DNA from: an uncultured Gemmatimonadota bacterium
Lineage (GTDB): Bacteria; JAAXHH01
Assembly (NCBI GenBank): GCA_951812955.1
Contig: OX638340.1
Coordinates: forward strand, 1,760,001 to 1,824,000
Direction of reading: 5' to 3'
Length of the DNA stretch: 64,000 nucleotides
Position 1 is the first letter of the stretch. Every line of letters starts with the position of its first letter. Shown here piece after piece: positions 10,831 through 26,756 of the stretch. The notes below the pieces were generated by a model. The model did not search any database. It had not been told where the DNA came from and saw nothing but the letters and a program-made list of their open reading frames with translations. Position numbers and translations under genes: made by a program.

Positions 10831-10836
10831 CCAGGC

Positions 10837-11283: not shown

Positions 11284-11322
11284 AAATAAGATCCTGACCA
11301 GGCGGATCCAGGGATCATCGGA

Positions 11323-11357
11323 CTTATATCTTCGGTCTTATATCTTCGGTCTTAAAT
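11323..11357. repeat. Tandem 14-bp repeat (cttatatcttcggt x2 plus partial copy) at the left edge of the low-GC island
   Basis: Read directly: cttatatcttcggt at 11323-11336 and 11337-11350, then cttaaat. Confidence 0.8.
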
Positions 11358-11395
11358 TTCTCGTCGATTTAAGAGTAAACCCGATATGCCCAGAC

Positions 11396-11566
11396 CTACT
11401 GCTTTTCTCGCAACATAGCCTTGATTTCAGACACCTCGGATTCGATGTTTTTCAAGCTGCCTTTGATTTCAGTTACAAGGGCGTTTGTTTCGGCCCACAG
11501 ATCTGGAATCTTGCCGAATACATTTGCTTGCTGACCAACCTTTTTTGATAACCAGTTCATCGGCAT
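11396..11566 (-). CDS. Small hypothetical protein (56 aa, predicted helical/coiled-coil)
   Basis: Not in the ORF track (<60 aa). ATG at 11566 preceded by an AAAGAGG RBS. Translation MPMNWLSKKVGQQANVFGKIPDLWAETNALVTEIKGSLKNIESEVSEIKAMLREKQ; stop TAG at 11396-11398. Confidence 0.35.
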   Translation of the reverse strand: MPMNWLSKKVGQQANVFGKIPDLWAETNALVTEIKGSLKNIESEVSEIKAMLREKQ

Positions 11567-11948
11567 CCTCTTTCATTTTCGAAATGTCTTAACGGGTGGC
11601 CGTGTTATTGAGTCCTTCCCATCTATCCGTCCTAACACTGCTATTTCGATACTATTGCGTTTTACAGGCCGAAGTAAAGAAGATCCTGAACTCATCTGAT
11701 GAATCAGCGGATTTCTGCCTTTGTCATTTCTGATTCTCCAGGTGTTCTTCCGTTTTCTGGTTCACTCGTTTGATCACGTAACCTTGAAATCGGTGGCGCA
11801 AATTCCGTGAATGTATAACCTCACTAGAATACAGTGGACTAGAAGCGAGATTTCTCGTGTTTTTATCAGAATTGTGAGTAAATGTTAACATTGAAAAACT
11901 AGGTTCCTTTATCTTTCTCCTCCCTTTATAACACAACTGAACGTTCGA

Positions 11949-11986
11949 GAATTACCCATACACAGGTGAATTACCCATACACAGGT
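11949..11986. repeat. Perfect 19-bp tandem direct repeat (gaattacccatacacaggt x2) ending 30 bp upstream of the hsdR ATG; candidate operator or promoter element
   Basis: Read directly: 11949-11967 and 11968-11986 are identical. Confidence 0.8.
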
Positions 11987-12015
11987 ATAGATCAAAAGCA
12001 AAACGGATATACAGC

Positions 12016-14781
12016 ATGCAGAGCGCCAACCAAACACCTGAACAGAAGGCACGAGACATCATCGACGTCAGGCTGGAACGCGCTGGCTGGAACTTACAGT
12101 CGAAGAACGAGATCGACTTCAGCGCTGGTCGCGGTATTGCCGTTCGCGAGTATCCGACAGACATAGGCCCCGCGGATTACGTCCTTTTTGTCGACAAGAA
12201 ACCAACCGGCGTGGTTGAGGCCAAACCTGCCACGCAGGGTCAAAATATCACGACTGTCGAGGAGCAGTCATCTGGTTATGCCAATGCCAACCTCAAGTGG
12301 GTAGACAACAAAGAGCCACTCCCCTTTGTCTACGAATCTACCGGCGAGCTCACGAGGTTCACCGACAGTCGCGACCCGAATCCTCGCTCACGAGAAGTGT
12401 TCAGCTTCCATCGGCCAGAGACCATGGCGAACTGGCTCAGCCAGTCCAATCCACTGCGTGAGCGGCTCCAGGGGCTGCCGGAATTGGATGTCAAAGGACT
12501 CAGGGCGTGCCAGATAAACGCCATCGAGAACCTTGAAACATCCTTCAAAAAGGACCACCCTCGCGCCCTCATTCAGATGGCTACCGGCTCCGGTAAAACC
12601 TACACAGCCATTACCTCGATCTACCGACTGCTCAAGCACGCTGACGCCAGGCGAGTCCTCTTCCTTGTAGACACCAGAAACCTCGGCGAACAGGCCGAAC
12701 AGGAATTCATGGCCTACGTGCCCGGTGACGACAACCGCAAGTTCACCGAGCTGTACAACGTCCAGCGCCTCAAATCGTCCTACGTCGCCAACGACAGCCA
12801 GGTCTGCATCAGCACGATCCAGCGTATGTATTCGATTCTGAGGGACGAGGAACTGGATGACGCTACAGAGCAAATCAACCCGGCGGAAATGGTGCAGCCC
12901 AAAAAACCAGTGCCGGTTGCCTATAACGAGAAGATCCCACCGGAGTTCTTCGACTTCATCATCATCGACGAATGCCACCGCTCGATTTACAACCTGTGGC
13001 GGCAAGTCCTCGAGTATTTTGATGCCTATCTCATCGGCCTGACTGCTACGCCGGACAACCGAACCTATGGATTCTTCCGAAAGAACGTGGTCAGTGAATA
13101 CCCACATGAGGAAGCCGTCGCCGACGGCGTAAACGTCGGCAACGAAGTCTATGTCATCGACACGGAAAGGACAAAGCACGGCGGAAGACTCAAGGCGGAG
13201 CAGCAAGTTGAAAAACGCGAGCGCCTGACGCGGCTCAAACGCTGGGAGATTCAGGACGAGGACGTCACCTACACCGCCAAGGAACTCGACCGGTCCGTCG
13301 TCAACCCCGACCAGATCCGCACCGTCATCCGCACTTTCCGTGACAAACTGCCTGAGATATTCCCGGGCCGCGCCGAAGTCCCGAAGACGCTCGTTTTTGC
13401 AAAGACCGACAGCCATGCCGACGACGTCATCCAGACCGTGCGCGAAGAATTCGGCGAAAGTAACGAGTTCTGCAAGAAGGTCACTTACAAAACCGAAGAA
13501 GACCCGAAATCCGTCCTCGCCCAGTTCCGCAACGACTACTATCCGCGCATCGCGGTAACCGTGGATATGATCGCCACGGGTACCGACGTAAAGCCGCTCG
13601 AATGCCTGCTCTTCATGCGTGACGTGAGGAGCCGTAACTATTTCGAGCAGATGAAAGGTCGTGGCACCCGCACCCTCGACCATGACGATCTCAGACAGGT
13701 CTCGCCCTCCGCCGCCAGCGGAAAGACCCACTACGTGATCGTGGACACCGTAGGGGTCACGAAATCGCTCAAGACCGCCAGCCAGCCGCTCGTCACCAAG
13801 CCCTCCGTGCCACTCAGGGACCTCCTCATGGGGGTGATGATGGGCGCATGCGATGAAGACACGGTGAGTTCGCTCGCCGGGCGCCTCGCGCGGCTTGATC
13901 AACAACTCGATTCCGCCGATAAAGAGCGGATCAAGAAGCAAGCCGGCGGTATCGAACTCACTCAAATCGTTGGCGATCTACTTGCCGCCATCGACCCTGA
14001 TCGCATTCAGGAAAAGGCGCATGGAATCGAACCCGTGCCCGACGGTGTTGAACCACCACCTGCCGTTTGCGAGAAGGCCCGGGAGCAGCTGGTCCATGAC
14101 GCAGCCGACGTGTTCAACGGCGAACTGGTCGAATTGATCGACTCGATACGTCGCGACAAGGATCAGACGATCGACCATGACAGCTTGGACAAGGTAACCC
14201 GCGCCGAATGGGAAGGCGACACGCGCGAGAACGCCGAAGCCATAGCGCAGGACTTCCGGCAGTATCTCGAAGCGAATCGCGATGAGATCGAAGCGCTGAC
14301 CATCTTCTTCGCCCAACCGCACCGTCGCCGGGAGTTGACGTACGCCATGATTCGTGAAGTCTTCGATAGACTGAAGAGCGACCAGCCTCGACTGGTCCCA
14401 TTACGGGTCTGGCAGGCCTATGTTCTGCTCGACGAATACAAAGGCGGTCAGCCAATCAGCGAACTGACTGCGCTTGTAGCGTTGATTCGCCGTGCCTGTG
14501 GCATCGATGGAAAGCTTTCGCCCTATTCGGAAACCGTGCGCCGGAATTTCCGGGACTGGATCATGAAGCGACACAGCGGTAGCGGAGAGAAGTTCAACGA
14601 CGAGCAGATGGACTGGCTGCGAATGATCCGCGAACACATCATCACTTCGTTTCATCTTGAACGCGATGATCTGGATTTAGCACCATTCGATAGCAGGGGT
14701 GGAATGGGGCAGATGTACAAGCTCTTCGGTGACCAGATGGATGAATTGATTGGCGAGTTGAATGAGATACTGGCGGCGTAA
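12016..14781 (+). CDS. hsdR: Type I restriction enzyme R subunit (HsdR)
   Basis: 921 aa. N-terminal PD-(D/E)xK nuclease (ADYVLF...VVEAKP), helicase motif I MATGSGKTYTA, motif II FIIIDECHRS, typical HsdR length. Confidence 0.9.
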   Translation: MQSANQTPEQKARDIIDVRLERAGWNLQSKNEIDFSAGRGIAVREYPTDIGPADYVLFVDKKPTGVVEAKPATQGQNITTVEEQSSGYANANLKWVDNKEPLPFVYESTGELTRFTDSRDPNPRSREVFSFHRPETMANWLSQSNPLRERLQGLPELDVKGLRACQINAIENLETSFKKDHPRALIQMATGSGKTYTAITSIYRLLKHADARRVLFLVDTRNLGEQAEQEFMAYVPGDDNRKFTELYNVQRLKSSYVANDSQVCISTIQRMYSILRDEELDDATEQINPAEMVQPKKPVPVAYNEKIPPEFFDFIIIDECHRSIYNLWRQVLEYFDAYLIGLTATPDNRTYGFFRKNVVSEYPHEEAVADGVNVGNEVYVIDTERTKHGGRLKAEQQVEKRERLTRLKRWEIQDEDVTYTAKELDRSVVNPDQIRTVIRTFRDKLPEIFPGRAEVPKTLVFAKTDSHADDVIQTVREEFGESNEFCKKVTYKTEEDPKSVLAQFRNDYYPRIAVTVDMIATGTDVKPLECLLFMRDVRSRNYFEQMKGRGTRTLDHDDLRQVSPSAASGKTHYVIVDTVGVTKSLKTASQPLVTKPSVPLRDLLMGVMMGACDEDTVSSLAGRLARLDQQLDSADKERIKKQAGGIELTQIVGDLLAAIDPDRIQEKAHGIEPVPDGVEPPPAVCEKAREQLVHDAADVFNGELVELIDSIRRDKDQTIDHDSLDKVTRAEWEGDTRENAEAIAQDFRQYLEANRDEIEALTIFFAQPHRRRELTYAMIREVFDRLKSDQPRLVPLRVWQAYVLLDEYKGGQPISELTALVALIRRACGIDGKLSPYSETVRRNFRDWIMKRHSGSGEKFNDEQMDWLRMIREHIITSFHLERDDLDLAPFDSRGGMGQMYKLFGDQMDELIGELNEILAA

Positions 14782-14928
14782 GTCGGTCTTTTGCCAGGCT
14801 TCTTACTGCTGCTCCCTTCTGCCGCACTACTTTACATATTGACCATTATCTTTACATCATGTAGTTTTTCTTGGTATATTATAGCAAGTAAAGAAATTCA
14901 ATAATACTCCAACAATTGATCTGCATCA

Positions 14929-15177
14929 TTGGAGCGTATCGTGCCCAAAGTCAGCGCCAAGCGACAGATAACGCTTCCGGCTGATCAGTGCCGTCTGGTC
15001 GGTATCGAGCCAGGCGACGAGTGCCAGAGTTTCGTGGCCGATGGCCGCATTACCATAGTCCGCCAGGAGCCCGGCAGCGCCTGGGGATGTCTGTCGCATC
15101 TCGAAGGGGATCAGACGGTTTCAGACGAGGAGTCGCGCCAGAACGCCATGGAGAGAAAGCGGGACCAAACGCCTTGA
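14929..15177 (+). CDS. vapB: AbrB/SpoVT-family antitoxin (VapB-like)
   Basis: SAKRQITLPADQCRLVGIEPGDE swapped-hairpin motif. Start more likely GTG at 14941 (GGAGCG RBS) than TTG at 14929. Stop overlaps the PIN gene start (TTGA). Confidence 0.65.
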   Translation: MERIVPKVSAKRQITLPADQCRLVGIEPGDECQSFVADGRITIVRQEPGSAWGCLSHLEGDQTVSDEESRQNAMERKRDQTP

Positions 15178-15575
15178 TCGCAATCGACACCAATGTCCTG
15201 CTGCGCTATCTCCTGAAAGATGATGAGGCGCAGGCTGAACGGGCGCGTAGCGTTATCGAGTGCGGCGAGCGCGTGCTCATTACGGACGTGGTACTGGCGG
15301 AAACGGTATGGACGTTAGCCGGCCGCAGATATCGCGCGAGCCGGACCGATCTGATCGATCTGGTCAACAAACTGCTGCAAGATGCCAACCTGTGCTTTGA
15401 GGATGACGAAGTGGTCTGGAGCGCCCTGCAGGCCTTTCGCAGGACGGAGGCGGACTTCGCCGACGCCCTGATCGTGTGCAAGGCCAGAAAGACGGTCCCC
15501 GCCGGCGACGAGTTGAGCGCGGTTTACACCTTCGATGATACCGCCTTGCAGTTGCCCGGTACCGCAGAGCCGTAG
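15174..15575 (+). CDS. vapC: PIN-domain toxin (VapC-like)
   Basis: TTG start overlapping the vapB stop. LIAIDTNVLLRYLL (first acidic residue of the PIN fold), later TDVVLAE, ~133 aa. Confidence 0.7.
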   Translation: MIAIDTNVLLRYLLKDDEAQAERARSVIECGERVLITDVVLAETVWTLAGRRYRASRTDLIDLVNKLLQDANLCFEDDEVVWSALQAFRRTEADFADALIVCKARKTVPAGDELSAVYTFDDTALQLPGTAEP

Positions 15576-15689
15576 CGCGTGTCTGGTGTATCGGCGCACG
15601 GGAAGTATGCCGGTATCTTTGTGAGTAGATGGATGAAGTTACTGATGAGTTGAATGAGGCGTTGGTGGCGTCTTTGACGGACTGATTTT

Positions 15690-17231
15690 GTGAATACTAT
15701 GATTCCAAATGGATGGGCCCATACATCGCTTGAAGCGGTGTGTCAGGTTCTCGATTCTAAGCGTATACCGTTAAATAACAGCGAACGTTCTCGACGTATC
15801 GCTGGTAAGTCCGCTGATGATCTTTACCCCTACTACGGCGCTACAGGTCAAGTCGGTGTAATTGACGATTTTATCTTTGATGGAGAACATGTTTTATTGG
15901 GCGAAGACGGTGCCCCATTTAATGATCCTTTCAAGGTAAAATCTTATCTGGTAGATGGGAAATTCTGGGTCAACAATCATGCTCATATTCTCAAATCAGC
16001 TATCCCAAACAGATATCTATGCCACTATCTCAATCAGATTGACTATTCTGGCTATGTAACAGGAACGACAAGACTGAAGCTTACTCAGACCGCATTAAAG
16101 CGAATTCCTGTTCTTGTTGCTCCCAAAGCCGAACAACACCGCATCGTCGCCAAAATCGAGGAACTGTTTTCCAAACTGGACAAGGGCATTGAGAGCCTGA
16201 AGGCGGCGAGGGCAAAGCTCGATGTCTATCGTCAGGCCGTGCTCAAGCACGCCTTCGAAGGCAAGCTCACGGCCCAGTGGCGCGAAGAGAACAAGGACAA
16301 GCTTGAGACACCCGAGCAATTACTCTCACGCATCAAAAAAGAGCGGGAAGCACGTTATAATAGGCAACTGCAGGAGTGGAAGGACGCCGTCAAGAAATGG
16401 GTGGAAGGCGGTAAGTCAGGAAAGAAGCCGACGAAACCTCCGAAGTTGGAGGAAATACCACACTTATCGATAACCGAAACAGTAACTCTTCCACCCCTCC
16501 CCGCTAATTGGGCTTATTTACACTTGGGGCTTGTGATCGACGAGCCCAAGTACGGTAGTTCGAAGAAATGTAACTACGACTACAAAGGCACAGGGGTTTT
16601 GAGAATACCTAATATCGTCCGAGGTGCAGTCGACACGTCCGATCTCAAAGGGACTCACTTCGAAGAGGACGAGAAACGCGCCTACGGTTTGAGGAGTGGT
16701 GAAATTCTCGTGATCCGATCAAACGGAAGTATCTCCGTAGTAGGTAGGTGCGCTCTAATCTCAAAAGCAGAAGAGCAGTATCTGTACGCTGGTTACCTTA
16801 TCCGCCTACGTAGTAACTTGACCGCGTTGCATCCCGAGTACCTTGTAGCTCTACTGTCAAGCCATCTGTTACGAACTCAAATCGAGCACAAAGCAAAATC
16901 GACTAGCGGTGTCAACAACATAAATTCGGGTGAAATCCAATCGCTCATCGTCCCTTTGTGCAGTCTCAGTGAGCAGGAAATAGTAGTCGAACGACTGTCT
17001 GCAAGTCTATCCTCGATTGACGCTATCAAGGGTGAGATCGACAATCAGCTACTACAAACCGAAGCCCTGCACCAATCCATCCTCAAGAAAGCATTCTCGG
17101 GCCAGCTCGTCCCGCAAGACCCGAATGACGAGCCCGCGTCAATTCTGCTTGAGCGCATCAATGGCGTAAAAGCTGCACTATCTCAAAACAACACACAGAG
17201 AAGACGTAGACACGAGAAGGCAACGGCATGA
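15690..17231 (+). CDS. hsdS: Type I restriction-modification specificity subunit (HsdS), two target-recognition domains
   Basis: Two variable TRDs separated by conserved helical spacers (PKAEQHRIVAKIEELFSKLD and SLSEQEIVVERLSASLSSID) and C-terminal AFSGQL. Lower GC within the TRDs. Confidence 0.9.
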   Translation: MNTMIPNGWAHTSLEAVCQVLDSKRIPLNNSERSRRIAGKSADDLYPYYGATGQVGVIDDFIFDGEHVLLGEDGAPFNDPFKVKSYLVDGKFWVNNHAHILKSAIPNRYLCHYLNQIDYSGYVTGTTRLKLTQTALKRIPVLVAPKAEQHRIVAKIEELFSKLDKGIESLKAARAKLDVYRQAVLKHAFEGKLTAQWREENKDKLETPEQLLSRIKKEREARYNRQLQEWKDAVKKWVEGGKSGKKPTKPPKLEEIPHLSITETVTLPPLPANWAYLHLGLVIDEPKYGSSKKCNYDYKGTGVLRIPNIVRGAVDTSDLKGTHFEEDEKRAYGLRSGEILVIRSNGSISVVGRCALISKAEEQYLYAGYLIRLRSNLTALHPEYLVALLSSHLLRTQIEHKAKSTSGVNNINSGEIQSLIVPLCSLSEQEIVVERLSASLSSIDAIKGEIDNQLLQTEALHQSILKKAFSGQLVPQDPNDEPASILLERINGVKAALSQNNTQRRRRHEKATA

Positions 17232-17983
17232 CCGGCAAACTTGCCATCAACATCGATAACCTGCTGCGCCAGCGTGCCATCGAAGAGGCGCTGGTGAACG
17301 CCATCGACCATCGCTCATACGAGGAGCGGGAGCCGGTTGAAGTTCGGATCACCCGCGATGAGTTGCTGGTCCTGAGTTATCCCGGGGCGGACCGCTCCAT
17401 CCGTATGGACGACTTCAAGCAGGGGCAGGCCGTGAGCAGGCGCTACCGGAACCGGCGAATTGGTGAGTTTCTGAAGGAACTCGACCTCGCCGAGGCCTGC
17501 TCAACCGGGGTGCCGAAGATTTTCACGGCCATGCAGCAGAACGGCTCACCGGAACCCATCTTCGAAAGCGACGAGAACCGGACCTGGTTTCGCGTGCGCC
17601 TGCCGGTGCATGAACGGGCATTACTTGCCACGACCGACCAGGATACCATACATGATACCCAACATGATAACTCATTGATAAATAAAAGGAAAAGTCACGG
17701 TACCCAACACGGTACCCAACATGATACCCAACATGATATCGACCAAGTCGAGCAACTGGTGGCTGTGCTCACTGGAGAGATGAGCCGAGCTAGTATCCAG
17801 GCAGGATTGGAACTCAAAGATCGGCCCCATTTCATCGAATCGTATCTAAAGCCTGCCCTGGAGGCCAAGTTGATTGAAATGACCCTCCCGGACAAACCCA
17901 CCAGTCGCCACCAGCGCTATCGCCTAACTGCCGCTGGAAAGGCTTTAGCTGAGCAAATCAAACGAGAGAACACCGCCAAATGA
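17228..17983 (+). CDS. HATPase_c_4 (RecG-like C-terminal / Schlafen-like ATPase core) plus C-terminal winged-HTH protein, lacking the usual N-terminal AlbA_2 domain
   Basis: VNAIDHRSYEEREPVEVRITRDELLVLSYPGA...SRRYRNRRIGEFLKELDLAEACSTGVPKIFTAMQQNGSPEPIFESDENRTWFRVRLP matches the HATPase_c_4 pattern. 4-bp overlap with hsdS stop and hsdM start. Internal TQHD low-complexity repeats (17641-17738). Confidence 0.6.
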   Translation: MTGKLAINIDNLLRQRAIEEALVNAIDHRSYEEREPVEVRITRDELLVLSYPGADRSIRMDDFKQGQAVSRRYRNRRIGEFLKELDLAEACSTGVPKIFTAMQQNGSPEPIFESDENRTWFRVRLPVHERALLATTDQDTIHDTQHDNSLINKRKSHGTQHGTQHDTQHDIDQVEQLVAVLTGEMSRASIQAGLELKDRPHFIESYLKPALEAKLIEMTLPDKPTSRHQRYRLTAAGKALAEQIKRENTAK

Positions 17984-19608: not shown

Positions 19609-21777
19609 ATGAATAGTAACTGCAAAACTGAAGTTCGATCCGAATCTGAAATAGTCACCGATTTAGAGAGTTTGAGCCAGGAAAAAGGGTACATCTATTC
19701 CTTCTGTCGAATGGTTGATGAATACCTGTGGTTGAAACCCAGCGAACCCGAAATCCCTGATTGGCACAGTCAATTAAACATACGTGAGTTAACTTTCTTA
19801 TTAGGGTTAATGGTCAAGTATCAATTGACCATATCTGATTCTCCGACTGAACGGGAGTCTGACCTACATATCGATAAGACCAATGAGTTGTTTCATGAAC
19901 TTCATCAAACTCATGCTTTTCCGAAAACAAAGGAAGTAAACGCCGCCCAAGTGAACTTAGAAGATTGGGAATCGGGGTTGAAAAACACCTATACCGACTG
20001 GATCAAAAGCGGTAAAGGTATCGTCGAGCCGGTTTTTTATGGTGAAGAAGGTGCATACGATTTCCAGTTCCTCAAAATGGCAGCATGGAGGTACAAACTT
20101 GATAATCAGTGGATAAAGTCGAACATAGGTATGGATGTTGATACTTTAACTGATATCGCAGGTAAGATTAAACGACTTACCGAATATCGCGCCAATGATG
20201 TAACCAGGACGTCAGACTTCAGAGATTCATGCTTTCGGTTGATATCAGTCTTCTTAATTAAGCCAGATGGCGTTCCTGGCGCTAATAGAGAAGAAATCGA
20301 AGTCTTTCTTGAAACCTTTTCTGTTGAACCACGGGACGGAGTTAATCAGAACCTTAACACGATTGGTGAATACAACACGGCAGACTCGCACCCCATTATT
20401 AAGATTAACAATGAACTTTATTTCATTCCCATCTACTACAACCTAGCAAAATCCATCTACGAGAACCCCTTCTACTGGATTCTCAAAGACAGTGATTACA
20501 GACAAACAGGACTTCAGAACAGGGGTGATGTTACAGAAGAAATAGTATTCGAACTGTTACGACGAGTTTTTGGTATAGACAACGTTTTTCGCAGGGTAAA
20601 AATAAAACGTGGAAACAGAGACATAACGGATATCGACGTTCTTGCAGTATGTGGGAGTAAAGCTGTCATTGTACAGGTGAAATCTAAGAGACTTACGGTG
20701 CTGTCGAAAGGTGGTGATGGCAAGAGCATAGAGAAGGATTTCAAACAAGCTGTTCAGGATGCTTACACCCAAGCGTTATTGTCGAGAAACTTCCTGCTAG
20801 AGACAGATGAAACACTGACGGTTAATGAAGAAAGGCTAATGCAGGTCAAAGGGAACATCGATGATGCCTATATAATCTGCGCTACTGGTGATCATTATCC
20901 TGCAATTACTATTCAGACAAAGTCATACCTCAAAAAGAAGGCAACCGACCCTTACCCAGTTGTACTAAGCGTTTTTGACCTTGATACTATATCGTTTTAC
21001 CTCAGAGAACCGTATGATTTCATATACTACGTTCGTCAACGCACTATACATGCGGGTCACTTCGAGGCTGATTCAGAAATGGCCTTTCTTGGTTTTCATC
21101 TAAACAAAAAACTATTTCCCACAGATGGATATGATATCACGATTATCCCACAATATTATGCATATCTCATCGATATTAGTTTTCCAGTCCTAAAGGGTGA
21201 GCATCCTATTTCGGATGCAGCATACAAGGTATTCCACAAGTGGAAAAACAACGATTTTGATGAGCTAGTTAATGAAATCAAAGTTAGAAATACCGGTCAT
21301 CCACAACTGACAGATTTGATTTTCTTTTTGTTCGATTTAGCAGGATCAGTAGCCGACAAGATTTTCGAAATCTTCGGCGAAATCAAACGAACCACTCGTG
21401 GTGACCTAAAGCCTCACGATGCTACAATTCCAATAGACCAAGCCGGGAAAGGTATAACACTGTTCTGCTACCCTTCGACGTTAGAACTTAGTGAGACAAT
21501 AATCCAAGATCAGTTTCGAGGCTTTGCAGCTGCTCGGAAATACAAAAGCAAAGCTAATGAATGGTTAGCGCTCGCATCATCCGCACAAAGTTCAAATCTG
21601 TTTGACTGTCTCTGGTATAGTAAAGAAGTATGGTGTTATGATGAGAGTTTCGAGCGTCTATCAAAACACATGATTAAACAAGGACATCCCATTCGTACTG
21701 ACGGACGGAAAATAGGTAGAAATTCACCCTGCCCTTGTGGAAGTGGATTGAAGTTTAAAAAGTGCCACGGAAAATAA
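19609..21777 (+). CDS. Large hypothetical protein with a NERD-like PD-(D/E)xK nuclease core and C-terminal SEC-C zinc-binding motif; candidate defence nuclease
   Basis: 722 aa, very AT-rich. Central EEIVFELLRRVFG...RDITDIDVLAVCGSKAVIVQVKSKR fits E...D-x-D...Q-x-K as in the NERD consensus (EIDHIVI...GIFVIETKN). The extreme C-terminus NSPCPCGSGLKFKKCHGK is a SEC-C motif. Confidence 0.5.
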   Translation: MNSNCKTEVRSESEIVTDLESLSQEKGYIYSFCRMVDEYLWLKPSEPEIPDWHSQLNIRELTFLLGLMVKYQLTISDSPTERESDLHIDKTNELFHELHQTHAFPKTKEVNAAQVNLEDWESGLKNTYTDWIKSGKGIVEPVFYGEEGAYDFQFLKMAAWRYKLDNQWIKSNIGMDVDTLTDIAGKIKRLTEYRANDVTRTSDFRDSCFRLISVFLIKPDGVPGANREEIEVFLETFSVEPRDGVNQNLNTIGEYNTADSHPIIKINNELYFIPIYYNLAKSIYENPFYWILKDSDYRQTGLQNRGDVTEEIVFELLRRVFGIDNVFRRVKIKRGNRDITDIDVLAVCGSKAVIVQVKSKRLTVLSKGGDGKSIEKDFKQAVQDAYTQALLSRNFLLETDETLTVNEERLMQVKGNIDDAYIICATGDHYPAITIQTKSYLKKKATDPYPVVLSVFDLDTISFYLREPYDFIYYVRQRTIHAGHFEADSEMAFLGFHLNKKLFPTDGYDITIIPQYYAYLIDISFPVLKGEHPISDAAYKVFHKWKNNDFDELVNEIKVRNTGHPQLTDLIFFLFDLAGSVADKIFEIFGEIKRTTRGDLKPHDATIPIDQAGKGITLFCYPSTLELSETIIQDQFRGFAAARKYKSKANEWLALASSAQSSNLFDCLWYSKEVWCYDESFERLSKHMIKQGHPIRTDGRKIGRNSPCPCGSGLKFKKCHGK

Positions 21778-21847
21778 CATCCGATCCTGAAACTTGATCT
21801 TGCAAGGGTCTGTCACGGAAAGGTTCGGTCATAGAGTATTAAGCTTA

Positions 21848-22918
21848 TTATTCTTCTTGTTCTTCGGGATATGGGAGGACTGGGGCTGTTGTCCAGCCTT
21901 CACGTTCAGGTGAATTATGTCCTGTACATATAGTTCTGCCCTCTGTCGAAACTACTTTCGCCCCACGGTGTATACAAGCCCGAATAACTGCTTTTCTAGG
22001 GTGATCCTCGTCTTCTTTAGACGCACTTATAATTGCGTTAAAATGTTCGTTTCCCTCTTCTTGCTTCTCTGGCAGTCGCTTACCCAGCAATCTGTCAAGT
22101 ATCTCCGTTGATAAATTGCGTCGTGATCCGTGGTGCGGGACCTGAAAATGGTCAATTCCTGGAAGTGTCAGTCCTACTGATGGCGCATAATCCAGTGCCT
22201 CGGTAAGTGCACCTCGTCCTGCATCCGCAGTCAGTAATACCTTTTTCTCGCAAAGATTAGCATACTGGATCACACTCATCTCATTTTCAAAGCTAGTTTC
22301 TTCCGGTGAAAACGTTTCTTCACCCCATGCAGATCTTATAAACGAAACAACACTTTTTACGAAAGCACGTCCATGTCCTAACAATGATTGAGCTGTCCCT
22401 TCCGGAGTTCTATCGGATTCAACAATGAGATTCAGATACCTTTCTTTTGATGGTGCAAGGACCGTGAACTCTCCGATTTGTTCTCCTTGAAATGGTGCCA
22501 ATATCGGTATCTCTCGTGCCTTAGCAATCTCTTCAAGTTCGGCAATGTTTGGGTATATTTCCTTTAGCCTACGAACCAGATTCTCCACATTTGTAAAACG
22601 AGCAAACCGGTCAATTAACTCATCTGCATATAGCCATGGTCGTAACATCCACAACTCTGAGACGCTAAATGCTTCGAGGACTTTTCGTAGCCCGCCTGTA
22701 TGGTCGCCATCGGAATGACTGGCTATAACGGCATCAATCGTGCTAGGGTCATCATAATACTTTTTGATATGCTCAATTACAATGTCTCCAGAATCCTGAA
22801 ATCCTCCATCAGTTACGTGAACTCTCTTGACACCAGCTATGGAATACCGAAGTGGTATTGCATCCCCGCTCTTGCTTGACTTTACGTCAAGGAAATCAAT
22901 TTCAAAAAAGTATGACAT
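21848..22918 (-). CDS. MBL-fold metallo-hydrolase, ComEC-like lactamase domain
   Basis: ASHSDGDHTGG (HxHxDH metal-binding motif). N-terminus FFEIDFLDVKSSKSGDAI resembles the start of the ComEC/Rec2 lactamase domain (FLDVGQGDA). Later HFQVPHHGS. AT-rich. Confidence 0.6.
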   Translation of the reverse strand: MSYFFEIDFLDVKSSKSGDAIPLRYSIAGVKRVHVTDGGFQDSGDIVIEHIKKYYDDPSTIDAVIASHSDGDHTGGLRKVLEAFSVSELWMLRPWLYADELIDRFARFTNVENLVRRLKEIYPNIAELEEIAKAREIPILAPFQGEQIGEFTVLAPSKERYLNLIVESDRTPEGTAQSLLGHGRAFVKSVVSFIRSAWGEETFSPEETSFENEMSVIQYANLCEKKVLLTADAGRGALTEALDYAPSVGLTLPGIDHFQVPHHGSRRNLSTEILDRLLGKRLPEKQEEGNEHFNAIISASKEDEDHPRKAVIRACIHRGAKVVSTEGRTICTGHNSPEREGWTTAPVLPYPEEQEE

Positions 22919-22921
22919 ATG

Positions 22922-23422
22922 CTACTCTTGCTCCTTGATTTTAGCGTTTCTTACGCGCTTAGCTACATATTGAGTCTGTTTTCTATAAGAGAATAAAAAT
23001 ATCAACAATAACCCCGCCAAAATTATTAAAACTATTTCATCATCACTTATAGACCACAAATGCTTCAACTCGTCAAAGATTTTGAGGAAAACTAACACAA
23101 TCACTAGCGAACTCAGCGTACGATACATGTTGTTCTGTTCTGACAAGACCTCGATCTTTGAATCCACTTCTACTGCTTCCAGATAATCCTTGTAGTCTGC
23201 GAACCGAACAAATTTGATCTTTTTGAGTAGGGGTTCCAATATCAACGATCCAATCCTGCTAATGACCAACCCTGCCATGTAGTATATAAACACTCCTATG
23301 ATCCAGTCCTTATGGACTAATGAAAATGAGGTGATTTGTTCTCCCAGACCAGCAAATAGAACTCCAGGAAGTAGATAGTTAAAAATGTTATATGACGACA
23401 GCTTTTCAATTACAGTTTTCAT
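22922..23422 (-). CDS. Small hydrophobic membrane protein (about 4 TM segments), translationally coupled to the MBL gene
   Basis: Hydrophobic stretches (IFNYLLPGVLFAGL; WIIGVFIYYMAGLVISRIGSLIL; LSSLVIVLVFLKIF; IVLIILAGLLLIFLF). Stop is 3 bp from the MBL gene start. Confidence 0.5.
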   Translation of the reverse strand: MKTVIEKLSSYNIFNYLLPGVLFAGLGEQITSFSLVHKDWIIGVFIYYMAGLVISRIGSLILEPLLKKIKFVRFADYKDYLEAVEVDSKIEVLSEQNNMYRTLSSLVIVLVFLKIFDELKHLWSISDDEIVLIILAGLLLIFLFSYRKQTQYVAKRVRNAKIKEQE

Positions 23423-24268
23423 CAGGTTTGCCTTTTTGTTTTATTGCCTAAAACATCCTCCATAACAACAAAATCTAATGTACACAACTAATCGTCGTAC
23501 TAGCTAGTAAGTGAAACTTCCACTCCTATCCTGCTTTAAAATGGTATGTCAACACCAGAAGTGATTTTTGTACAGCACCTAATTGGGTAGTGATATGTTT
23601 TTAAATCTCGTTGAATGTAACCCTAATGTATCGACAAATCCCGATTATTTACAAGTAATTAACCCGTAGATTGCCTCTTTAAACAGATTGACATGGGAGG
23701 TTCTACATGGTAACCTGAACACGTCAACGATTCCAATTCGGCTCGAGCCGGGTATTCTGCTGAATATAGAACCCACAAAGGTAGATTTGCAAAACCTCCC
23801 GCAATCTTTAGGTGGAGCGTTGACACTGCCCGTCACCAACAAACAGATTGGTGCTAAAGCTGGGGTTCGCCATGAGGGTTTTCGGTACCATAGTACTGTG
23901 GGTGTTAGCACTGTAGGAACTTAGATGTTCATAGTTGCCATGTTTTATTCCAATTCGGTTTCCTAGGAGCTAGAGCAGGACAATCTCGATTTAGTAGCAA
24001 AGGAACATCAGGTCTCTGTTTTGGAGAATACCCTTGAGAAGTTGAGGGCTCAAACCAACTTGGTGGATGAACTGACGGCCGTTCAGATAGAAAACATCAA
24101 ACTGATGGATAAGTTGATCAAAGCGAACAACGACTAGATTAATATGGTAAACAAGCATTTCATAAAGCATAGGTACCGTCCCATTGACCGGGGAGGGTTA
24201 GATTGCAACTAAGTCTTAGGATTGGTCGCCAGAGACTGAACGGTTCGGTGCCCTGATTGCGTGGTTGA

Positions 24269-24400
24269 ATGGTCAAGTTCGAGGAAATTGACAAGCAGTT
24301 CGACCGGGTGGATGTACCACTGGACGTGCTGGTGCTGAACATGCGTGAACTCAGAACCGATGTGACAGATGGTCTTAGAAAACACGCAATAGAAAGATAG
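24269..24400 (+). CDS. Small hypothetical ORF (43 aa)
   Basis: MVKFEEIDKQFDRVDVPLDVLVLNMRELRTDVTDGLRKHAIER; weak RBS; first of a same-strand series of short ORFs. Confidence 0.2.
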   Translation: MVKFEEIDKQFDRVDVPLDVLVLNMRELRTDVTDGLRKHAIER

Positions 24401-24413
24401 GAGGGAGTGAAGA

Positions 24414-24566
24414 ATGGAAAATGACGGACAACTGGAACAGATTATCGAACTGTTGATGGACTTAAATTCCCACATGGCAGACCTTAAAGAACTCATCAAG
24501 GTTTCAAACAATCAACTGGATATCATCAAAAGTTACTTGGACAGCATAGATCGTAATTCAGCATAG
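24414..24566 (+). CDS. Small hypothetical protein (50 aa), helical
   Basis: AGGAGGGAG RBS 6 nt upstream. MENDGQLEQIIELLMDLNSHMADLKELIKVSNNQLDIIKSYLDSIDRNSA. Confidence 0.3.
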   Translation: MENDGQLEQIIELLMDLNSHMADLKELIKVSNNQLDIIKSYLDSIDRNSA

Positions 24567-24574
24567 GAGTCAAT

Positions 24575-24751
24575 ATGTCGTTGGGAGGATATACGTATAT
24601 AGCGGACACTGAGACATTGAAATCAAACTACGAGTTATTGCAGAAAAGCCTTATTCAACTTATCAACGAGACGAATAGTGCTGAAATAATGCTCAAGGCG
24701 ATTTCGTTAATGATCGAACTAGATTCCACCTATACCAAGGGAAATAGGTGA
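24575..24751 (+). CDS. Small hypothetical protein (58 aa)
   Basis: AGGAG RBS. MSLGGYTYIADTETLKSNYELLQKSLIQLINETNSAEIMLKAISLMIELDSTYTKGNR. Starts 9 nt after the previous stop. Confidence 0.3.
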   Translation: MSLGGYTYIADTETLKSNYELLQKSLIQLINETNSAEIMLKAISLMIELDSTYTKGNR

Positions 24752-24761
24752 AGGGGTCTTT

Positions 24762-24878
24762 ATGCCCACAGGACCGAAGGGCGAGAAGCGGCCTCGTGAC
24801 TTCGTCGGATCGGTCATTACAGTCGGCAAGATCACCACTGGTTTAATAGAAGAGACCAGAGTAAGCCCTGCCAAGTAA
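24762..24878 (+). CDS. Small hypothetical ORF (38 aa)
   Basis: GAAGGGG RBS. MPTGPKGEKRPRDFVGSVITVGKITTGLIEETRVSPAK. Confidence 0.2.
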   Translation: MPTGPKGEKRPRDFVGSVITVGKITTGLIEETRVSPAK

Positions 24879-24995
24879 AATGCCGGAACTAGGCCAGGTC
24901 GATACGACTGACCGCGTCATGCCGGACCGAGATCGGCTGGTATGCCGGCGAATGTGCGGTGGGGAGGTCAAAGTACCAGATAGCGGAGGATTGAC

Positions 24996-25151
24996 ATGAA
25001 GCAACTGGAGCAGAAGGATATTAAGATCGCATTGGATAGGCTCAATGCCGAAATAGAACAAAAGCAACGCACGGTGGACCATTATCAAGGTGAATTGGAT
25101 AGCCTTAAAAACGTTGCGGAGCTTTTGGAGTCTCTTCTGGGATCACAGTAA
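24996..25151 (+). CDS. Small hypothetical protein (51 aa), coiled-coil-like
   Basis: GGAGGA RBS. MKQLEQKDIKIALDRLNAEIEQKQRTVDHYQGELDSLKNVAELLESLLGSQ. Confidence 0.3.
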   Translation: MKQLEQKDIKIALDRLNAEIEQKQRTVDHYQGELDSLKNVAELLESLLGSQ

Positions 25152-25453
25152 ACTGATACTGGTGGAAGTCAGTATGGATTTTGGAAGAATTTAAGATCGT
25201 ACTCGAAATCGTAAGGACATTGCTTGGCCCATGATTGAAAGGAGGTCATGATGGACAGGTACAAAGGAATGTATCCGATTCCAATAAATAGAGAAATCAT
25301 TGAGACCAAGAGGAAGCATTGGGAAGTCCTTCTATAAGCAGACCGAGTTCTCGAACAGGCTTCCAAGCAAATTGGTCTCGACACGTCCGAAGAAACATAT
25401 TAAAAATAAGAGAAATGCTTAACACAACGGGTTGGTTTCGTTATACTTAGTAT

Positions 25454-26191
25454 ATGAAAAGGATCATCCGAGACAAGCTACTGTTAATGCTGAACATGCT
25501 GTTAGAAGTGTCTTCGATAAGTTCTATCGCTAGGATCGTCGGGGTCAACTACATCACCGTTCAGAAACTCATGCTGGATTCCGTTCAGGTGTGCAAAATC
25601 TTCCACCATAAAACCGTAATGGATGAAGACGCCAAGCAAATACAATGCGACAAATATGGAACTTCGTTTAGAACAAGGTCCAATGCGGTCTGGACGTAGA
25701 CGGCCATCCGGCAAGACACCAAGTTTATTCTGGCTTTCAAGGACGGAGACAGAACCAACGAAACCGCCAAGACGCTATTCGACGATCTGATGACGCGGCT
25801 GCGAAACAAGATGTGGATCCGGACGGACAGGCTTCCTTCCTACTCAGGGGCGATATGGGACTCGTTTTTCGTGTCTGCCACACATCAATTAGCGGGCGCC
25901 GCCGCAGTCTAATACTCCAACATAGAGCGCCAGAATCTCAACATGCACATGGGAGTGTGAAGGTACACCCGAGCGACCGATGCGTTCTCTAAGAAGATCG
26001 ACTATCTATACAACCTGCTCTCATTGTACTTCGTCTTCTACAACTTTATCCGAAAGCATCTGCTACTTGGCATGACTCTCGCTCAGGGAATCGGCCTTTC
26101 TGGTGAAACCCGCGACCTGGGTAAGATACTTGATGTGGTGGACGAAGCAGCCCCACTTCCGAACAGGCCGAAGACGTACAGAAAGTGCTAG
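25454..26191 (+). mobile_element. Decayed IS1-family transposase (InsA-like HTH ORF plus frameshifted InsB-like C-terminal fragments), IS remnant
   Basis: 25454..25699 encodes an InsA-like HTH (SISSIARIVGVNYITVQKLM, cf. IS1 InsA ...ATARIMGVGLNTILRHL). Downstream frames give ...KTLFDDLMTRLRNKMWIRTDRLPSYSGAI... and ...ERQNLNMHMGV*RYTRATDAFSKKIDYLYNLLSLYFVFYNFIRKHLLLGMTLAQG..., the conserved IS1-family transposase C-terminus. Reading frame is broken by stops and shifts. Confidence 0.6.
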
Positions 26192-26235
26192 GAACATCAT
26201 TCATTCTTTTGTCACAAGGAGTATTCACTGTGGAT

Positions 26236-26550
26236 ATGCGTAAACTTACGGTTAAAATATCTGATCCCAATGAGGAAGATTCATCGGGGTTTTTAGTTGA
26301 GGCTGTACCGATTGGGGCAAGCCTCGTCTTGACATCAGTAGGATACATCAGATTGAGGGCAGTGAGTGAAAGAACGGATGTATACGGTCTCGCTATTTTG
26401 GAGTTAATTCCTTCTGCAAAGTTGAATGGCTTGTATTACAGGATCAATATCTCTGACGGTAGCGCGAGTTACTCACGCTTTATCATAATGCCGAACGAAG
26501 ACGTCAATCTGCATGATTTAATGTTGTATGAAGAGATGCCGGAAGGCTGA
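26236..26550 (+). CDS. Hypothetical protein (about 104 aa)
   Basis: ORF 26185..26550, probably starting at ATG 26236 or GTG 26230 behind an AAGGAG RBS. No recognisable family. Confidence 0.3.
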   Translation: MRKLTVKISDPNEEDSSGFLVEAVPIGASLVLTSVGYIRLRAVSERTDVYGLAILELIPSAKLNGLYYRINISDGSASYSRFIIMPNEDVNLHDLMLYEEMPEG

Positions 26551-26756
26551 AGGCTAAATTACCGATAACATACAATCCTTAGTACTACCTTAATTGAATG
26601 ATAGCGGTACCTAGAGTTGCTTGTAATCGGGCTCTCACAATCTCGTTTAAAAATTGGTCAACAATCAATGTGCTCTTAACACAGTGCAATTATACACCGC
26701 ACGTTCATCGAGAAACCACATTACTTGATACAACCTCGACTACACGATAAGGCTTT

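What the first reader, a model, noticed from the sequence alone, without database searches (positions are those of the whole stretch)
11284..26756. ~15.5-kb low-GC genomic island between a membrane-protein gene and xth, with nested layers of foreign DNA
Base composition drops sharply right after the stop of the 10837..11283 gene and returns to backbone level at the xth stop (26757). The island has at least two compositional layers. The type I RM genes are moderately GC-rich. The NERD/SEC-C gene, the MBL + membrane pair, the small-ORF run and the IS1 remnant are much more AT-rich. No integrase, tRNA or obvious flanking direct repeat is visible. Insertion may be old, or mediated by the decayed IS1 at the right end. 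This is a classic defence-island architecture accumulating by successive insertions.
Basis: seen in the sequence. Interest (0 to 1): 0.6.

Follow-up and report, generated by a model that had tools for sequence, protein, structure and literature searches.

The report
Variable anti-phage defence island beside xth
This is a roughly 15-kb cluster of anti-virus defence genes at a fixed spot next to the DNA-repair gene xth in a sponge-associated Gemmatimonadota bacterium; related genomes have this spot empty or filled with different defence genes, so it is a well-documented but ordinary "defence hotspot".

Summary
The compositional drop is real. Backbone 1-kb windows have GC 0.577 ± 0.036, and 11284-26756 has GC 0.485. 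There are two layers. The type I RM block has GC 0.544 and backbone-like tetranucleotide usage. The block 19550-26756 has GC 0.428 and is strongly deviant.

Eleven related loci from sponge-associated Gemmatimonadota refine the picture:
- The first 590 bp (11284-11873) are ancestral low-GC spacer.
- The insert is 11874 to about 26760. It lies in a ~35-nt spacer between a conserved hairpin and the xth stop.
- Four relatives are empty there (0.35-1.4 kb).
- Six carry other cargo: Hma, Hachiman plus an XhoI-like RM, a ubiquitin-like set, or mixtures sharing cassettes with the window.

The window holds at least five cassettes:
- a type I RM with a nested VapBC, swapped HsdS target-recognition domains (TRDs) and an internally deleted AlbA_2/Fic-like gene;
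- a stand-alone NERD/wHTH/SEC-C nuclease;
- the PADLOC candidate PDC-M48;
- a window-specific right slot with small ORFs and an IS1 relic (three in-frame stops).

There is no integrase, tRNA or direct repeat. Island and flank phylogenies disagree: L095 has island genes 92-95% identical to the window but xth only 84.8%, and its xth is 95.6% identical to that of an empty-site genome. The island has therefore been exchanged within the genus, most likely by recombination. Verdict: a new member of a known kind, of moderate-to-low interest.

The parts
10837..11283 (+). Left flanking core gene: 148-aa membrane protein with no Pfam family. It is conserved in all relatives.
   Evidence: 76-84% nt identity in L001, L003, L082, L083 and L088
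11284..11873 (.). Ancestral low-GC spacer (GC 0.427), not part of the insert. It contains a conserved 56-aa coiled-coil gene (11396-11566, minus strand), the decayed remnant of a second small gene (11595-11873), and a conserved hairpin plus T-run (11845-11858) that marks the left edge of the insertion site.
   Evidence: Shared with the empty-site genomes L001 and L003 and with L081 and L090. Hairpin. Motif seen in all relatives.
11874..12015 (+). Left end of the insert and hsdR upstream region. It includes a perfect 19-bp tandem duplication at 11949-11986, which is single-copy in L095.
   Evidence: Homology with L003 ends at 11873, where L003 is 13 nt from the xth stop. The junction is identical in L095. 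Repeat D10.
12016..14781 (+). hsdR, the type I restriction subunit (921 aa).
   Evidence: ResIII, EcoEI_R_C, HSDR_N and Helicase_C domains. PADLOC REase_I E 1e-53. 92.7% nt identity to L095 and 87.3% to L094.
14770..15701 (+). VapBC toxin-antitoxin cassette nested in the RM operon. vapB (AbrB-type) is 14941-15177. vapC (PIN) is 15174-15575, with a TTGA start/stop overlap. At 15621-15671 lies a relic of an hsdR 3' end, 76% identical to 14729-14779.
   Evidence: PIN E 6e-11. AbrB TIGR01439 E 7.5e-5. Repeat D2. The cassette occurs without the RM genes in L088, at 81.5% identity. Sequence read.
15690..17231 (+). hsdS, the specificity subunit (513 aa, GC 0.483). Only the central and C-terminal conserved regions match L094 and L095, so both target-recognition domains have been swapped.
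   Evidence: Methylase_S. PADLOC Specificity_I E 1e-86. blastn matches only at 16107-16430 and from 17064. 41% aa identity to L094 HsdS.
17228..17983 (+). HATPase_c_4 + Fic-like_C protein (251 aa). It is an in-frame internal-deletion derivative of a 543-aa SLFN_AlbA_2-HATPase_c_4-Fic-like_C protein.
   Evidence: Residues 1-19 and 17-251 align to residues 1-19 and 305-543 of the L094 protein.
17980..19467 (+). hsdM, the type I methyltransferase (495 aa).
   Evidence: N6_Mtase E 9e-72. PADLOC MTase_I E 7e-196. 95.0% nt identity to L095. A relic of its 3' end is present in L091.
19550..21825 (+). NERD/wHTH/SEC-C cassette. The gene is 19609-21777 (722 aa, GC 0.408). It is predicted to be a stand-alone PD-(D/E)xK nuclease and is the most widely shared cassette at this hotspot.
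21848..23422 (-). PDC-M48 candidate defence pair: the MBL-fold hydrolase M48B (21848-22918) and the membrane protein M48A (22922-23422).
   Evidence: PADLOC PDC-M48B E 2.6e-166 and PDC-M48A E 9e-63. Shared with L090, L094 and L095. Homologues 65-87% identical occur in Poribacteria, Thioalkalivibrio and Symploca.
23450..26756 (.). Window-specific right slot (GC 0.445). It holds a run of small ORFs (24021-25151) of unproven coding status, the IS1 transposase relic (25454-26191, + strand, 3 in-frame stops), and orf121 (26185-26550) with no family.
   Evidence: No match in any relative. IS1. No Pfam or PHROG hits for the small ORFs.
26757..27539 (-). Right flanking core gene xth (exodeoxyribonuclease III). 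Its ancestral stop is replaced, so the protein ends ...EVGVGCE rather than ...EVGVG as in relatives.
   Evidence: Exo_endo_phos E 2e-32. Junction sequences.

Best explanation
The region is the occupied state of a genus-wide, integrase-less defence-island hotspot in sponge-associated Gemmatimonadota. The hotspot is the ~35-nt spacer between the xth stop codon and a conserved hairpin upstream of a small-gene spacer.

In the window it holds about 14.9 kb (11874 to about 26760), made of at least five independently exchangeable cassettes:
1. A type I RM operon (hsdR-hsdS-hsdM). It has itself been remodelled by insertion of a VapBC cassette, by swapping of both HsdS TRDs, and by an in-frame deletion in an embedded AlbA_2/HATPase_c_4/Fic-like gene.
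2. A stand-alone NERD/winged-helix/SEC-C nuclease.
3. The two-gene PADLOC candidate PDC-M48.
4. A fast-turnover slot next to xth that here contains small ORFs, a dead IS1 and an orphan ORF.

Shown: presence and absence of the island, alternative cargo, sharp cassette boundaries, relics, and disagreement between island and flank phylogenies.

Inferred:
- Cargo enters and leaves by homologous recombination. The anchors are the flanking core genes (xth/parC-like on the right, membrane148/CBM9-like on the left) and shared island genes.
- Illegitimate recombination at intergenic boundaries and occasional IS insertion also contribute.
- Functionally the genes provide layered anti-phage and anti-plasmid immunity: restriction of unmethylated DNA, a toxin-antitoxin module, and nuclease and MBL/membrane effectors.
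For: Composition shift and two layers.

Empty sites:
- L082: 354 bp
- L001: about 0.5 kb
- L083: 815 bp
- L003: about 1.4 kb

Alternative cargo at the same junction:
- L002: Hma (HmaA and HmaB, both E=0) plus an AAA_15/21 protein
- L088/L089 and L091: Hachiman, an XhoI-like RM and NERD
- L090: HEPN_AbiU2, NERD, PDC-M48 and a 471-aa protein
- L094: type I RM, PDC-M48 and an E1/Multi_ubiq/M78 set
- L095: same order as the window, but with an IS3 and three other genes in the right slot

Cassette boundaries fall within tens of nt of stop and start codons.

Relics:
- the last codons of hsdR, and an hsdR-3'-like relic, flank VapBC in L088
- the hsdM 3' end in L091
- the AlbA_2 deletion
- IS1 with 3 in-frame stops

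Phylogenetic disagreement:
- Window versus L095: hsdR 92.7, hsdM 95.0, NERD 93.8, M48 93.5% nt, but xth 84.8 and parC-like 88.1.
- L095 xth is 95.6% identical to that of the empty-site L083.
- L094 and L002 are 96.6% identical in parC yet carry unrelated cargo next to xth.

No tRNA or integrase.

Relatives come from sponge metagenomes (LXNJ is from Petrosia ficiformis, MKWU from Aplysina aerophoba, PMC5099237). That paper reports enrichment of defence features in such communities.
Against: - No recombination tract was mapped directly. The homologous-recombination route is inferred from the lack of mobility genes and from the tree disagreement.
- The flank phylogeny rests on two genes next to the hotspot, xth (774 nt) and parC-like, which may themselves be recombinant.
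- The left flank of L095 and L094 and the far end of the L002 island lie outside the DNA retrieved, so an integrase or other mobility gene there cannot be excluded.
- A 10-bp exact inverted repeat (TGTGAGTAAA) sits at both ends of the window's insert (p about 4.5e-4) and could hint at transposition.
- No defence activity has been tested for any gene here. PDC-M48 and the NERD/SEC-C protein are only candidates.
Confidence: 0.8

Rival explanations
1. A single, recent insertion of one discrete 15-kb mobile element (a genomic island, integrative element or transposon) into this genome. The compositional layers would have been inherited from the donor.
For: The whole block 11874-23428 occurs in the same gene order at 91-95% identity in L095, whose backbone is more distant. 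So a large part does travel as a unit. A 10-bp exact inverted repeat lies at the two junctions (p about 4.5e-4).
Against: - No integrase, transposase (other than one dead internal IS1), tRNA or target-site duplication.
- The right arm of the inverted repeat is absent from L095, and the left arm differs there by one base.
- Individual cassettes occur separately at the same locus in L088, L090, L091 and L094, with different neighbours.
- The right slot differs even between the window and L095.
Confidence: 0.08
2. The island is ancestral to the genus. It was gained once, long ago, and the empty sites are independent deletions. On this view it is old resident DNA, not a currently exchanged element.
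For: - Shared cassettes differ between most genome pairs by about as much as backbone genes do. Window versus L094: hsdM 91.0 and hsdR 87.3, against parC 91.1 and xth 88.0. Window versus L088: NERD 87.6 against xth 87.1.
- Relics of the type I RM in L088 and L091 show decay from a window-like ancestor.
- IS1 is heavily decayed.
Against: - It requires at least 4 independent clean deletions, including one in L083, whose xth is 95.6% identical to that of island-bearing L095.
- It cannot explain why L095's island is closest to the window's while its flank is the most distant.
- It cannot explain the unrelated cargo (Hma, Hachiman, the ubiquitin-like set) in closely related backbones (L002, L088, L094 at 92-97%).
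- The AT-rich cassettes show no amelioration (GC3 0.35-0.45 against 0.74-0.85).
- Their families occur at 65-87% identity across phyla.
Confidence: 0.1
3. IS1-mediated (composite-transposon-like) delivery of the island or of its AT-rich half.
For: An IS1-family transposase relic lies at 25454-26191, near the right end. L095 carries an intact IS3 in the equivalent slot, so IS elements do land there.
Against: - There is only one copy. It lies about 570 bp inside the right edge, has three in-frame stops, and has altered catalytic-motif residues as read from the translation.
- No terminal inverted repeats were detected around it.
- It is absent from L090, L094 and L095, which share the neighbouring cassettes.
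Confidence: 0.02

Closest known systems
Core defence hotspots flanked by conserved genes, e.g. cDHS1/cDHS2 of Pseudomonas aeruginosa (Johnson et al. 2023, as summarised in PMC12035536), and the defence-island hotspots of E. coli (PMC10121019)
   Same: Fixed flanking core genes. Highly variable defence cargo of 0-15+ kb between related genomes. Several systems co-located, including uncharacterised candidate genes. Empty and occupied alleles in the same clade.
   Different: The taxon and setting differ: uncultured sponge-associated Gemmatimonadota, compared at species-level rather than strain-level divergence (about 85-96% nt). The anchor genes are different (xth, and a small-gene spacer plus a membrane protein). 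In E. coli most occupied hotspots hold recognisable mobile elements (PMC10121019), whereas none is recognisable here.
Type I restriction-modification systems with embedded accessory genes (an EcoEI-like HsdR C-terminal domain)
   Same: HsdR, HsdS and HsdM are complete, with two TRDs in HsdS. TRD replacement between relatives changes the predicted specificity.
   Different: The gene order is hsdR-vapBC-hsdS-(AlbA_2-deleted HATPase_c_4/Fic-like)-hsdM. The VapBC cassette is bracketed by an hsdR 3' end and a relic copy of one.
PADLOC candidate system PDC-M48 (MBL-fold hydrolase plus small membrane protein)
   Same: Both genes give full-length, very strong matches to the PDC-M48A and PDC-M48B models, and they are adjacent and co-oriented.
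   Different: Nothing differs in sequence. The system is only a computational candidate, and no paper in the searched library mentions it.
Single-protein PD-(D/E)xK defence nucleases: Upx (PDB 9wuf; PMC13099982), Shedu SduA, Can2/Card1, and the NERD-domain effector ZwsA (bioRxiv 10.64898/2026.04.06.716636)
   Different: - Sequence identity to these is 9-14%, and no PADLOC model of them is hit.
- It is 722 aa against 1212 aa for Upx.
- It has a C-terminal SEC-C zinc motif.
- The family-invariant motif reads Q-x-K rather than E-x-K.
- Its domain set differs from ZwsA (VHS-DUF647-NERD-S4).

Membership tests
Defence-island hotspot flanked by core genes | The same flanking core genes in related genomes with variable content between them, including empty alleles | tested here: met
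   Eleven related loci were compared. Four are empty, six carry other cargo, and one is cut short. All have the junction at the xth stop.
Defence-island hotspot flanked by core genes | Cargo dominated by known or candidate defence systems | tested here: met
   Window: type I RM, VapBC and PDC-M48. Relatives: Hma, Hachiman, XhoI-like RM, HEPN_AbiU2 and E1-like proteins.
Integrase-borne genomic island, ICE or prophage | A tyrosine or serine recombinase (or relaxase, or phage genes) within the element | tested here: not met
   No such domain in any ORF of 11284-26756 that was scanned, nor in the called genes of L088, L090, L091 or L094.
Integrase-borne genomic island, ICE or prophage | Insertion at a tRNA/tmRNA gene, or flanking direct (att) repeats | tested here: not met
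   ARAGORN found 0 genes in 64 kb. Rfam found 0. The longest direct match between the two junctions is 3 nt.
IS1-family insertion sequence or composite transposon | An intact IS1 transposase with terminal inverted repeats, and two copies bracketing the cargo for a composite transposon | tested here: not met
   Homology is real (NF033558 E 7e-16 but 58.7 bits, below the cutoff of 100; PF03400 30 bits, above 24.1). The frame has 3 in-frame stops, there is only one copy, and no inverted repeats were found around it.
Type I restriction-modification system | HsdR (helicase plus nuclease), HsdM (N6-adenine methyltransferase) and HsdS with two TRDs, encoded together | tested here: met
   All three ORFs are full length compared with L094 and L095. 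Enzymatic activity is not testable here.
VapBC type II toxin-antitoxin | A small DNA-binding antitoxin gene overlapping the start of a downstream PIN-domain toxin gene | tested here: met
   AbrB-type 78-aa ORF at 14941-15177 and PIN ORF at 15174-15575, with a TTGA overlap. L088 and L095 have the same 78+133 aa pair.
PDC-M48 (PADLOC candidate) | Adjacent genes matching both the M48A and M48B models | tested here: met
   E 9e-63 and E 2.6e-166, both full length.
PDC-M48 (PADLOC candidate) | Demonstrated anti-phage activity | not testable with these tools
   No paper found in the library.
Upx single-protein dual-nuclease defence | A protein of about 1200 aa with an atypical N-terminal and a canonical C-terminal PD-(D/E)xK domain joined by a regulatory middle domain (PMC13099982) | tested here: inconclusive

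The most novel reading that the evidence does not exclude
The ~720-aa NERD/winged-helix/SEC-C protein (19609-21777) may represent an unrecognised, widespread, single-gene anti-phage nuclease family.

- It is the most persistent cassette of this hotspot, present in six of the seven occupied loci.
- Homologues at 45-50% identity sit as solitary genes among other defence systems in two unrelated genomes: next to SIR2, Eco57I-like, AAA_15/21 and HigBA genes in L092, and next to TIR and HD genes in L093.
- It has family-invariant D341/D343...Q356-x-K358 residues inside the NERD match (residues 306-396).
- It matches no PADLOC system model apart from its SEC-C tail.
Probability: 0.45. Interest if true: 0.5.

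Novelty: new member of a known kind. Interest (0 to 1): 0.35.

Why it matters
The region gives a clean, multi-genome natural example of how defence islands turn over without any dedicated mobility machinery. It comes from an uncultured, host-associated phylum (sponge Gemmatimonadota) for which no such hotspot came up in the few literature searches run here.

Four features are visible at one locus:
- gene-cassette swapping at sharp intergenic boundaries;
- remodelling inside an RM operon (TRD swap, toxin-antitoxin insertion, domain deletion);
- persistence of strongly AT-rich genes without amelioration;
- movement of the island between species of a genus.

It also points to two testable candidate defence genes, the NERD/SEC-C nuclease and PDC-M48. 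It does not reveal a new kind of system or mechanism.

Tried and rejected
1. Terminal inverted repeat. An exact 10-bp inverted repeat, TGTGAGTAAA, lies at both ends of the insert (about 11872-11881 and 26756-26765). Such a match occurs in only 4.5e-4 of random 30-nt window pairs. However, it does not extend beyond 10 bp. The right arm is missing at the xth junction in L095, and the left arm has a mismatch there, although the left junction is homologous. There is no target-site duplication either. I treat it as probably coincidental.

2. Conserved att-like site downstream of xth. All ten loci diverge exactly at the stop codon and share nothing beyond it. Only the window and L002 have extended xth reading frames.

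3. Exact-match look-ups of window proteins. xth, M48B, HsdM and the 100%-identical P0001 all returned nothing, so the source contig itself could not be retrieved.

4. Coding status of the small-ORF run 24021-25151 and of orf121. There were no significant Pfam, PHROG or NCBIfam hits and no homologue in any relative. The question is unresolved, and they may be decayed or spurious ORFs.

5. Sequence search of the NERD/SEC-C family profile against PDB. It matched only the SEC-C tail.

6. Cluster look-up for organism names. It returned none. The taxon is inferred from the record titles of L001 and L002 (Gemmatimonadota MAGs) and from the sponge metagenome accessions.

7. Literature search for PDC-M48. 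It found nothing.
Full report
**Observation**

A sliding-window profile confirms the compositional anomaly. Backbone 1-kb windows outside 11284-26756 have GC 0.577 ± 0.036, with a minimum of 0.490. The region averages 0.485, and 15 of its 29 windows fall below the backbone minimum.

The drop starts directly after the stop of the 148-aa membrane-protein gene (10837-11283). It ends at xth (26757-27539, GC 0.564).

Two layers are real.
- Segment 11874-19549 has GC 0.544. Its 2-kb windows lie 19-28 from the backbone in tetranucleotide distance, against 15-25 for the backbone itself.
- Segment 19550-26756 has GC 0.428 and distance 35-47.
- GC3 is 0.35-0.45 there, against 0.74-0.85 in the four flanking backbone genes measured.

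**Gene content**

| Coordinates | Strand | Feature |
|---|---|---|
| 12016-14781 | + | hsdR (ResIII, EcoEI_R_C) |
| 14941-15177 / 15174-15575 | + | AbrB-type vapB and PIN vapC |
| 15690-17231 | + | hsdS |
| 17228-17983 | + | 251-aa HATPase_c_4/Fic-like_C protein |
| 17980-19467 | + | hsdM |
| 19609-21777 | + | 722-aa NERD+SEC-C protein |
| 21848-22918 and 22922-23422 | - | MBL-fold + membrane pair = PADLOC PDC-M48B/A (E 2.6e-166 and 9e-63) |
| 24021-25151 | + | run of small ORFs with no family |
| 25454-26191 | + | IS1 transposase relic: one frame with three in-frame stops (NF033558 E 7e-16; PF03400 30 bits) |
| 26185-26550 | + | orphan 121-aa ORF |

There is no tRNA, tmRNA or Rfam family in the whole window. 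No recombinase domain was found in any ORF scanned.

**Relatives and the empty site**

A scan of one genome per species with Xth found three close relatives, and synteny with them identifies the window's lineage. L001 and L002 are titled Gemmatimonadota MAGs. L003 is a complete MAG chromosome titled only "bacterium".

A metagenome scan with the membrane protein added L081-L084. L082 and L083 come from the Petrosia ficiformis sponge metagenome and L084 from Aplysina aerophoba (PMC5099237).

In four relatives the membrane-protein gene and xth are close together:

| Locus | Distance between the two genes |
|---|---|
| L082 | 354 bp |
| L001 | about 0.5 kb |
| L083 | 815 bp |
| L003 | about 1.4 kb |

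What lies between them is AT-rich spacer carrying one to three small coiled-coil/TM genes.

Window 11284-11873 is homologous to that spacer.
- The 56-aa gene at 11396-11566 (minus strand) is conserved in L001, L003 and L081.
- Segment 11595-11873 is a decayed copy of a small gene that is intact in L003.

In L003 the equivalent of window position 11873 lies 13 nt from the xth stop. The inserted DNA is therefore 11874 to about 26760, some 14.9 kb.

A conserved hairpin with a T-run (11845-11858) marks the left edge of the insertion spacer in all relatives. On the right, every genome diverges exactly at the xth stop. The window and L002 have even lost the ancestral stop, so the window's Xth ends ...EVGVGCE.

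**A hotspot with alternative cargo**

- L002 carries unrelated AT-rich DNA downstream of xth: an Hma system (HmaA and HmaB, E=0) plus an AAA_15/21 protein.
- Homologues of the NERD/SEC-C protein and of PDC-M48B led to five more genomes with an occupied hotspot:

| Locus | Content between the spacer and xth |
|---|---|
| L088 / L089 | VapBC, RHH-PIN, 357 aa, NERD, XhoI-like RM, Hachiman HamB/HamA |
| L091 | helicase/MTase/ResIII, 356 aa, NERD, XhoI-like RM, Hachiman |
| L090 | HEPN_AbiU2, NERD, PDC-M48, 471 aa |
| L094 | hsdR, PIN relic, hsdS, full-length 543-aa SLFN_AlbA_2-HATPase_c_4-Fic-like, hsdM, 239 aa, PDC-M48, second M48B-like gene, E1-like/Multi_ubiq/M78 peptidase |
| L095 | same order as the window from hsdR to PDC-M48A, then an intact IS3 and three unrelated genes before xth |

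**Layers defined by comparison rather than composition**

blastn shows sharp cassette boundaries within tens of nucleotides of stop and start codons:
- 14770-15701 (VapBC) is shared with L088, without the RM genes.
- 19550-21825 (NERD) is shared with L088, L090, L091 and L095.
- 21826-23449 (PDC-M48) is shared with L090, L094 and L095.
- 23450-26756 is unique to the window.

The RM operon itself contains nested events.
- VapBC is bracketed by the hsdR 3' end (14729-14779) and a 76%-identical relic of one (15621-15671). The relic, and the last hsdR codons, survive in L088, which has lost hsdR.
- L091 keeps a relic of the hsdM 3' end.
- Only the conserved central and C-terminal parts of hsdS match L094 and L095. 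Both TRDs have been replaced, which accounts for the low GC of hsdS.
- The 251-aa protein is an in-frame deletion derivative lacking residues ~20-304, which include the AlbA_2 domain.

So the GC-richer RM block is not simply an older or newer shell around the AT-rich block. In L095 the two blocks occur together in the same order.

**How it got there**

Pairwise identities show that island and flank histories disagree.

| Comparison | % nt identity |
|---|---|
| Window vs L095, hsdR | 92.7 |
| Window vs L095, hsdM | 95.0 |
| Window vs L095, NERD | 93.8 |
| Window vs L095, PDC-M48 | 93.5 |
| Window vs L095, xth | 84.8 (lowest of the nine relatives compared for this gene) |
| Window vs L095, parC-like | 88.1 |
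| L095 vs L083 (empty site), xth | 95.6 |
| L094 vs L002, parC-like | 96.6 |

L094 and L002 carry unrelated cargo next to xth despite their near-identical parC-like genes. The window's nearest backbone relative, L082, is empty.

This pattern requires exchange of the island or its parts between species of the genus, together with recent gain or loss. Recognisable mobility genes are few: the window has only a dead internal IS1, L095 has an IS3, and none was called in the retrieved parts of the other occupied loci. The most economical route is therefore homologous recombination anchored in flanking core genes and in shared island genes. Illegitimate joins at intergenic boundaries and occasional IS insertion in the xth-proximal slot would add to this. 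That mechanism is inferred, not demonstrated.

I rejected three alternatives.
- A single discrete mobile element: rejected because of the cassette mosaicism. The tempting 10-bp terminal inverted repeat (p about 4.5e-4) is not conserved in L095.
- IS1-mediated delivery: there is one dead internal copy, and it is specific to the window.
- Purely ancestral DNA: it needs at least 4 clean deletions and cannot explain the incongruence.

**The NERD/SEC-C protein**

- An AlphaFold2 model built from 32 homologues is confident (pLDDT 85.5, pTM 0.86).
- The only Foldseek hit at E ≤ 0.001 is Upx (E 9e-5).
- Upx is a 1212-aa dual PD-(D/E)xK single-protein defence (PMC13099982).
- The present family is shorter, shares 9-14% identity with these proteins, ends in a SEC-C zinc motif, and has invariant D341/D343...Q356-x-K358.
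- Homologues at 45-50% identity are solitary genes in other defence islands. L092 has SIR2_2, Eco57I-like, AAA_15/21 and HigBA neighbours. L093 has TIR and HD neighbours.
- It works like a stand-alone defence nuclease, but I do not file it under any named system.

**Comparison with known systems, and verdict**

The architecture is that of core-gene-flanked defence hotspots such as P. aeruginosa cDHS1/2 (PMC12035536) and the E. coli hotspots (PMC10121019).

The differences are these:
- the taxon;
- the anchor genes;
- the apparent absence of carrier mobile elements;
- the species-level depth of the comparison.

It is a new member of a known kind. It needs correction on the left boundary, on equating compositional layers with historical layers, and on the IS1 hypothesis. 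Interest is moderate to low (0.35). The most novel surviving reading is that the NERD/wHTH/SEC-C protein is an unrecognised single-gene defence family (probability about 0.45).

Noticed in passing
window 10830-10837; L003 12623-15583; L081 1508-2593; L088 4640-5599: A second variable spot lies between the CBM9-like gene and the membrane148 gene. The window has a 6-bp spacer. L081 has about 1.1 kb. L088 has a 319-aa gene. L003 has about 3 kb: a 334-aa membrane protein, a DUF2089 regulator and three tandem small coiled-coil/TM genes.
   Followed up: partly
window 11949-11986: A perfect tandem duplication of a 19-bp unit (GAATTACCCATACACAGGT) lies 30 nt upstream of the hsdR start. L095 has a single, diverged copy, so the duplication is recent. 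Whether it affects hsdR expression is unknown.
   Followed up: partly
window ~11872-11881 and ~26756-26765: An exact 10-bp inverted repeat, TGTGAGTAAA, sits at the two ends of the insert. It occurs in only 4.5e-4 of random 30-nt window pairs. It is not conserved at the L095 right junction, and there is no target-site duplication.
   Followed up: yes
window 17633-17750: Imperfect 12-nt periodic repeats (ACCCAACATGAT-like, 4 copies) lie inside the HATPase_c_4/Fic-like_C gene. Their significance is unknown.
   Followed up: no
L003 10887-11582 and 14408-15483; window 11396-11566(-); L001 3002-3187: A lineage-specific family of AT-rich small genes (56-130 aa; coiled coil with or without a C-terminal TM helix; weak CCDC90-like hit, E 0.008) fills the ancestral spacers, sometimes as tandem arrays. 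In L081 the 56-aa gene region carries extra short tandem repeats.
   Followed up: partly
L094 5424-9327: Next to xth, L094 carries an M78 peptidase, a Multi_ubiq protein, a ThiF/E1-like protein and a second, shorter PDC-M48B-like gene (294 aa, PDLC04673 E 1e-132). This looks like a ubiquitin-like conjugation defence module beside PDC-M48.
   Followed up: no
L095 11142-13306: In the closest island relative the NERD/SEC-C gene is split into 310-aa and 312-aa ORFs, and the Fic-like gene is split into 152 + 74 aa. Cassettes therefore decay in place as well as being swapped.
   Followed up: no
window 39500-46500 and 52500-54500: Two further stretches have moderately low GC (0.49-0.55). The first holds GrpB, two HAD hydrolases, an APH-family kinase, a 420-aa protein with no family, an ECF sigma factor and an HTH_3 protein. 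The second holds a HAD hydrolase and a metallophosphoesterase. They were not compared with relatives.
   Followed up: no
window 24762-24999: A locally GC-richer patch (0.50-0.55) lies within the small-ORF run. Its 38-aa ORF begins MPTGPKGEKRP... and runs into stops and frame changes, so it may be the relic of a small gene. No family hit was found.
   Followed up: no
window 32076-34390: Two tandem DUF2961 paralogues (374 and 359 aa) lie downstream of the hotspot. The pair is also duplicated in L002 and L003.
   Followed up: no
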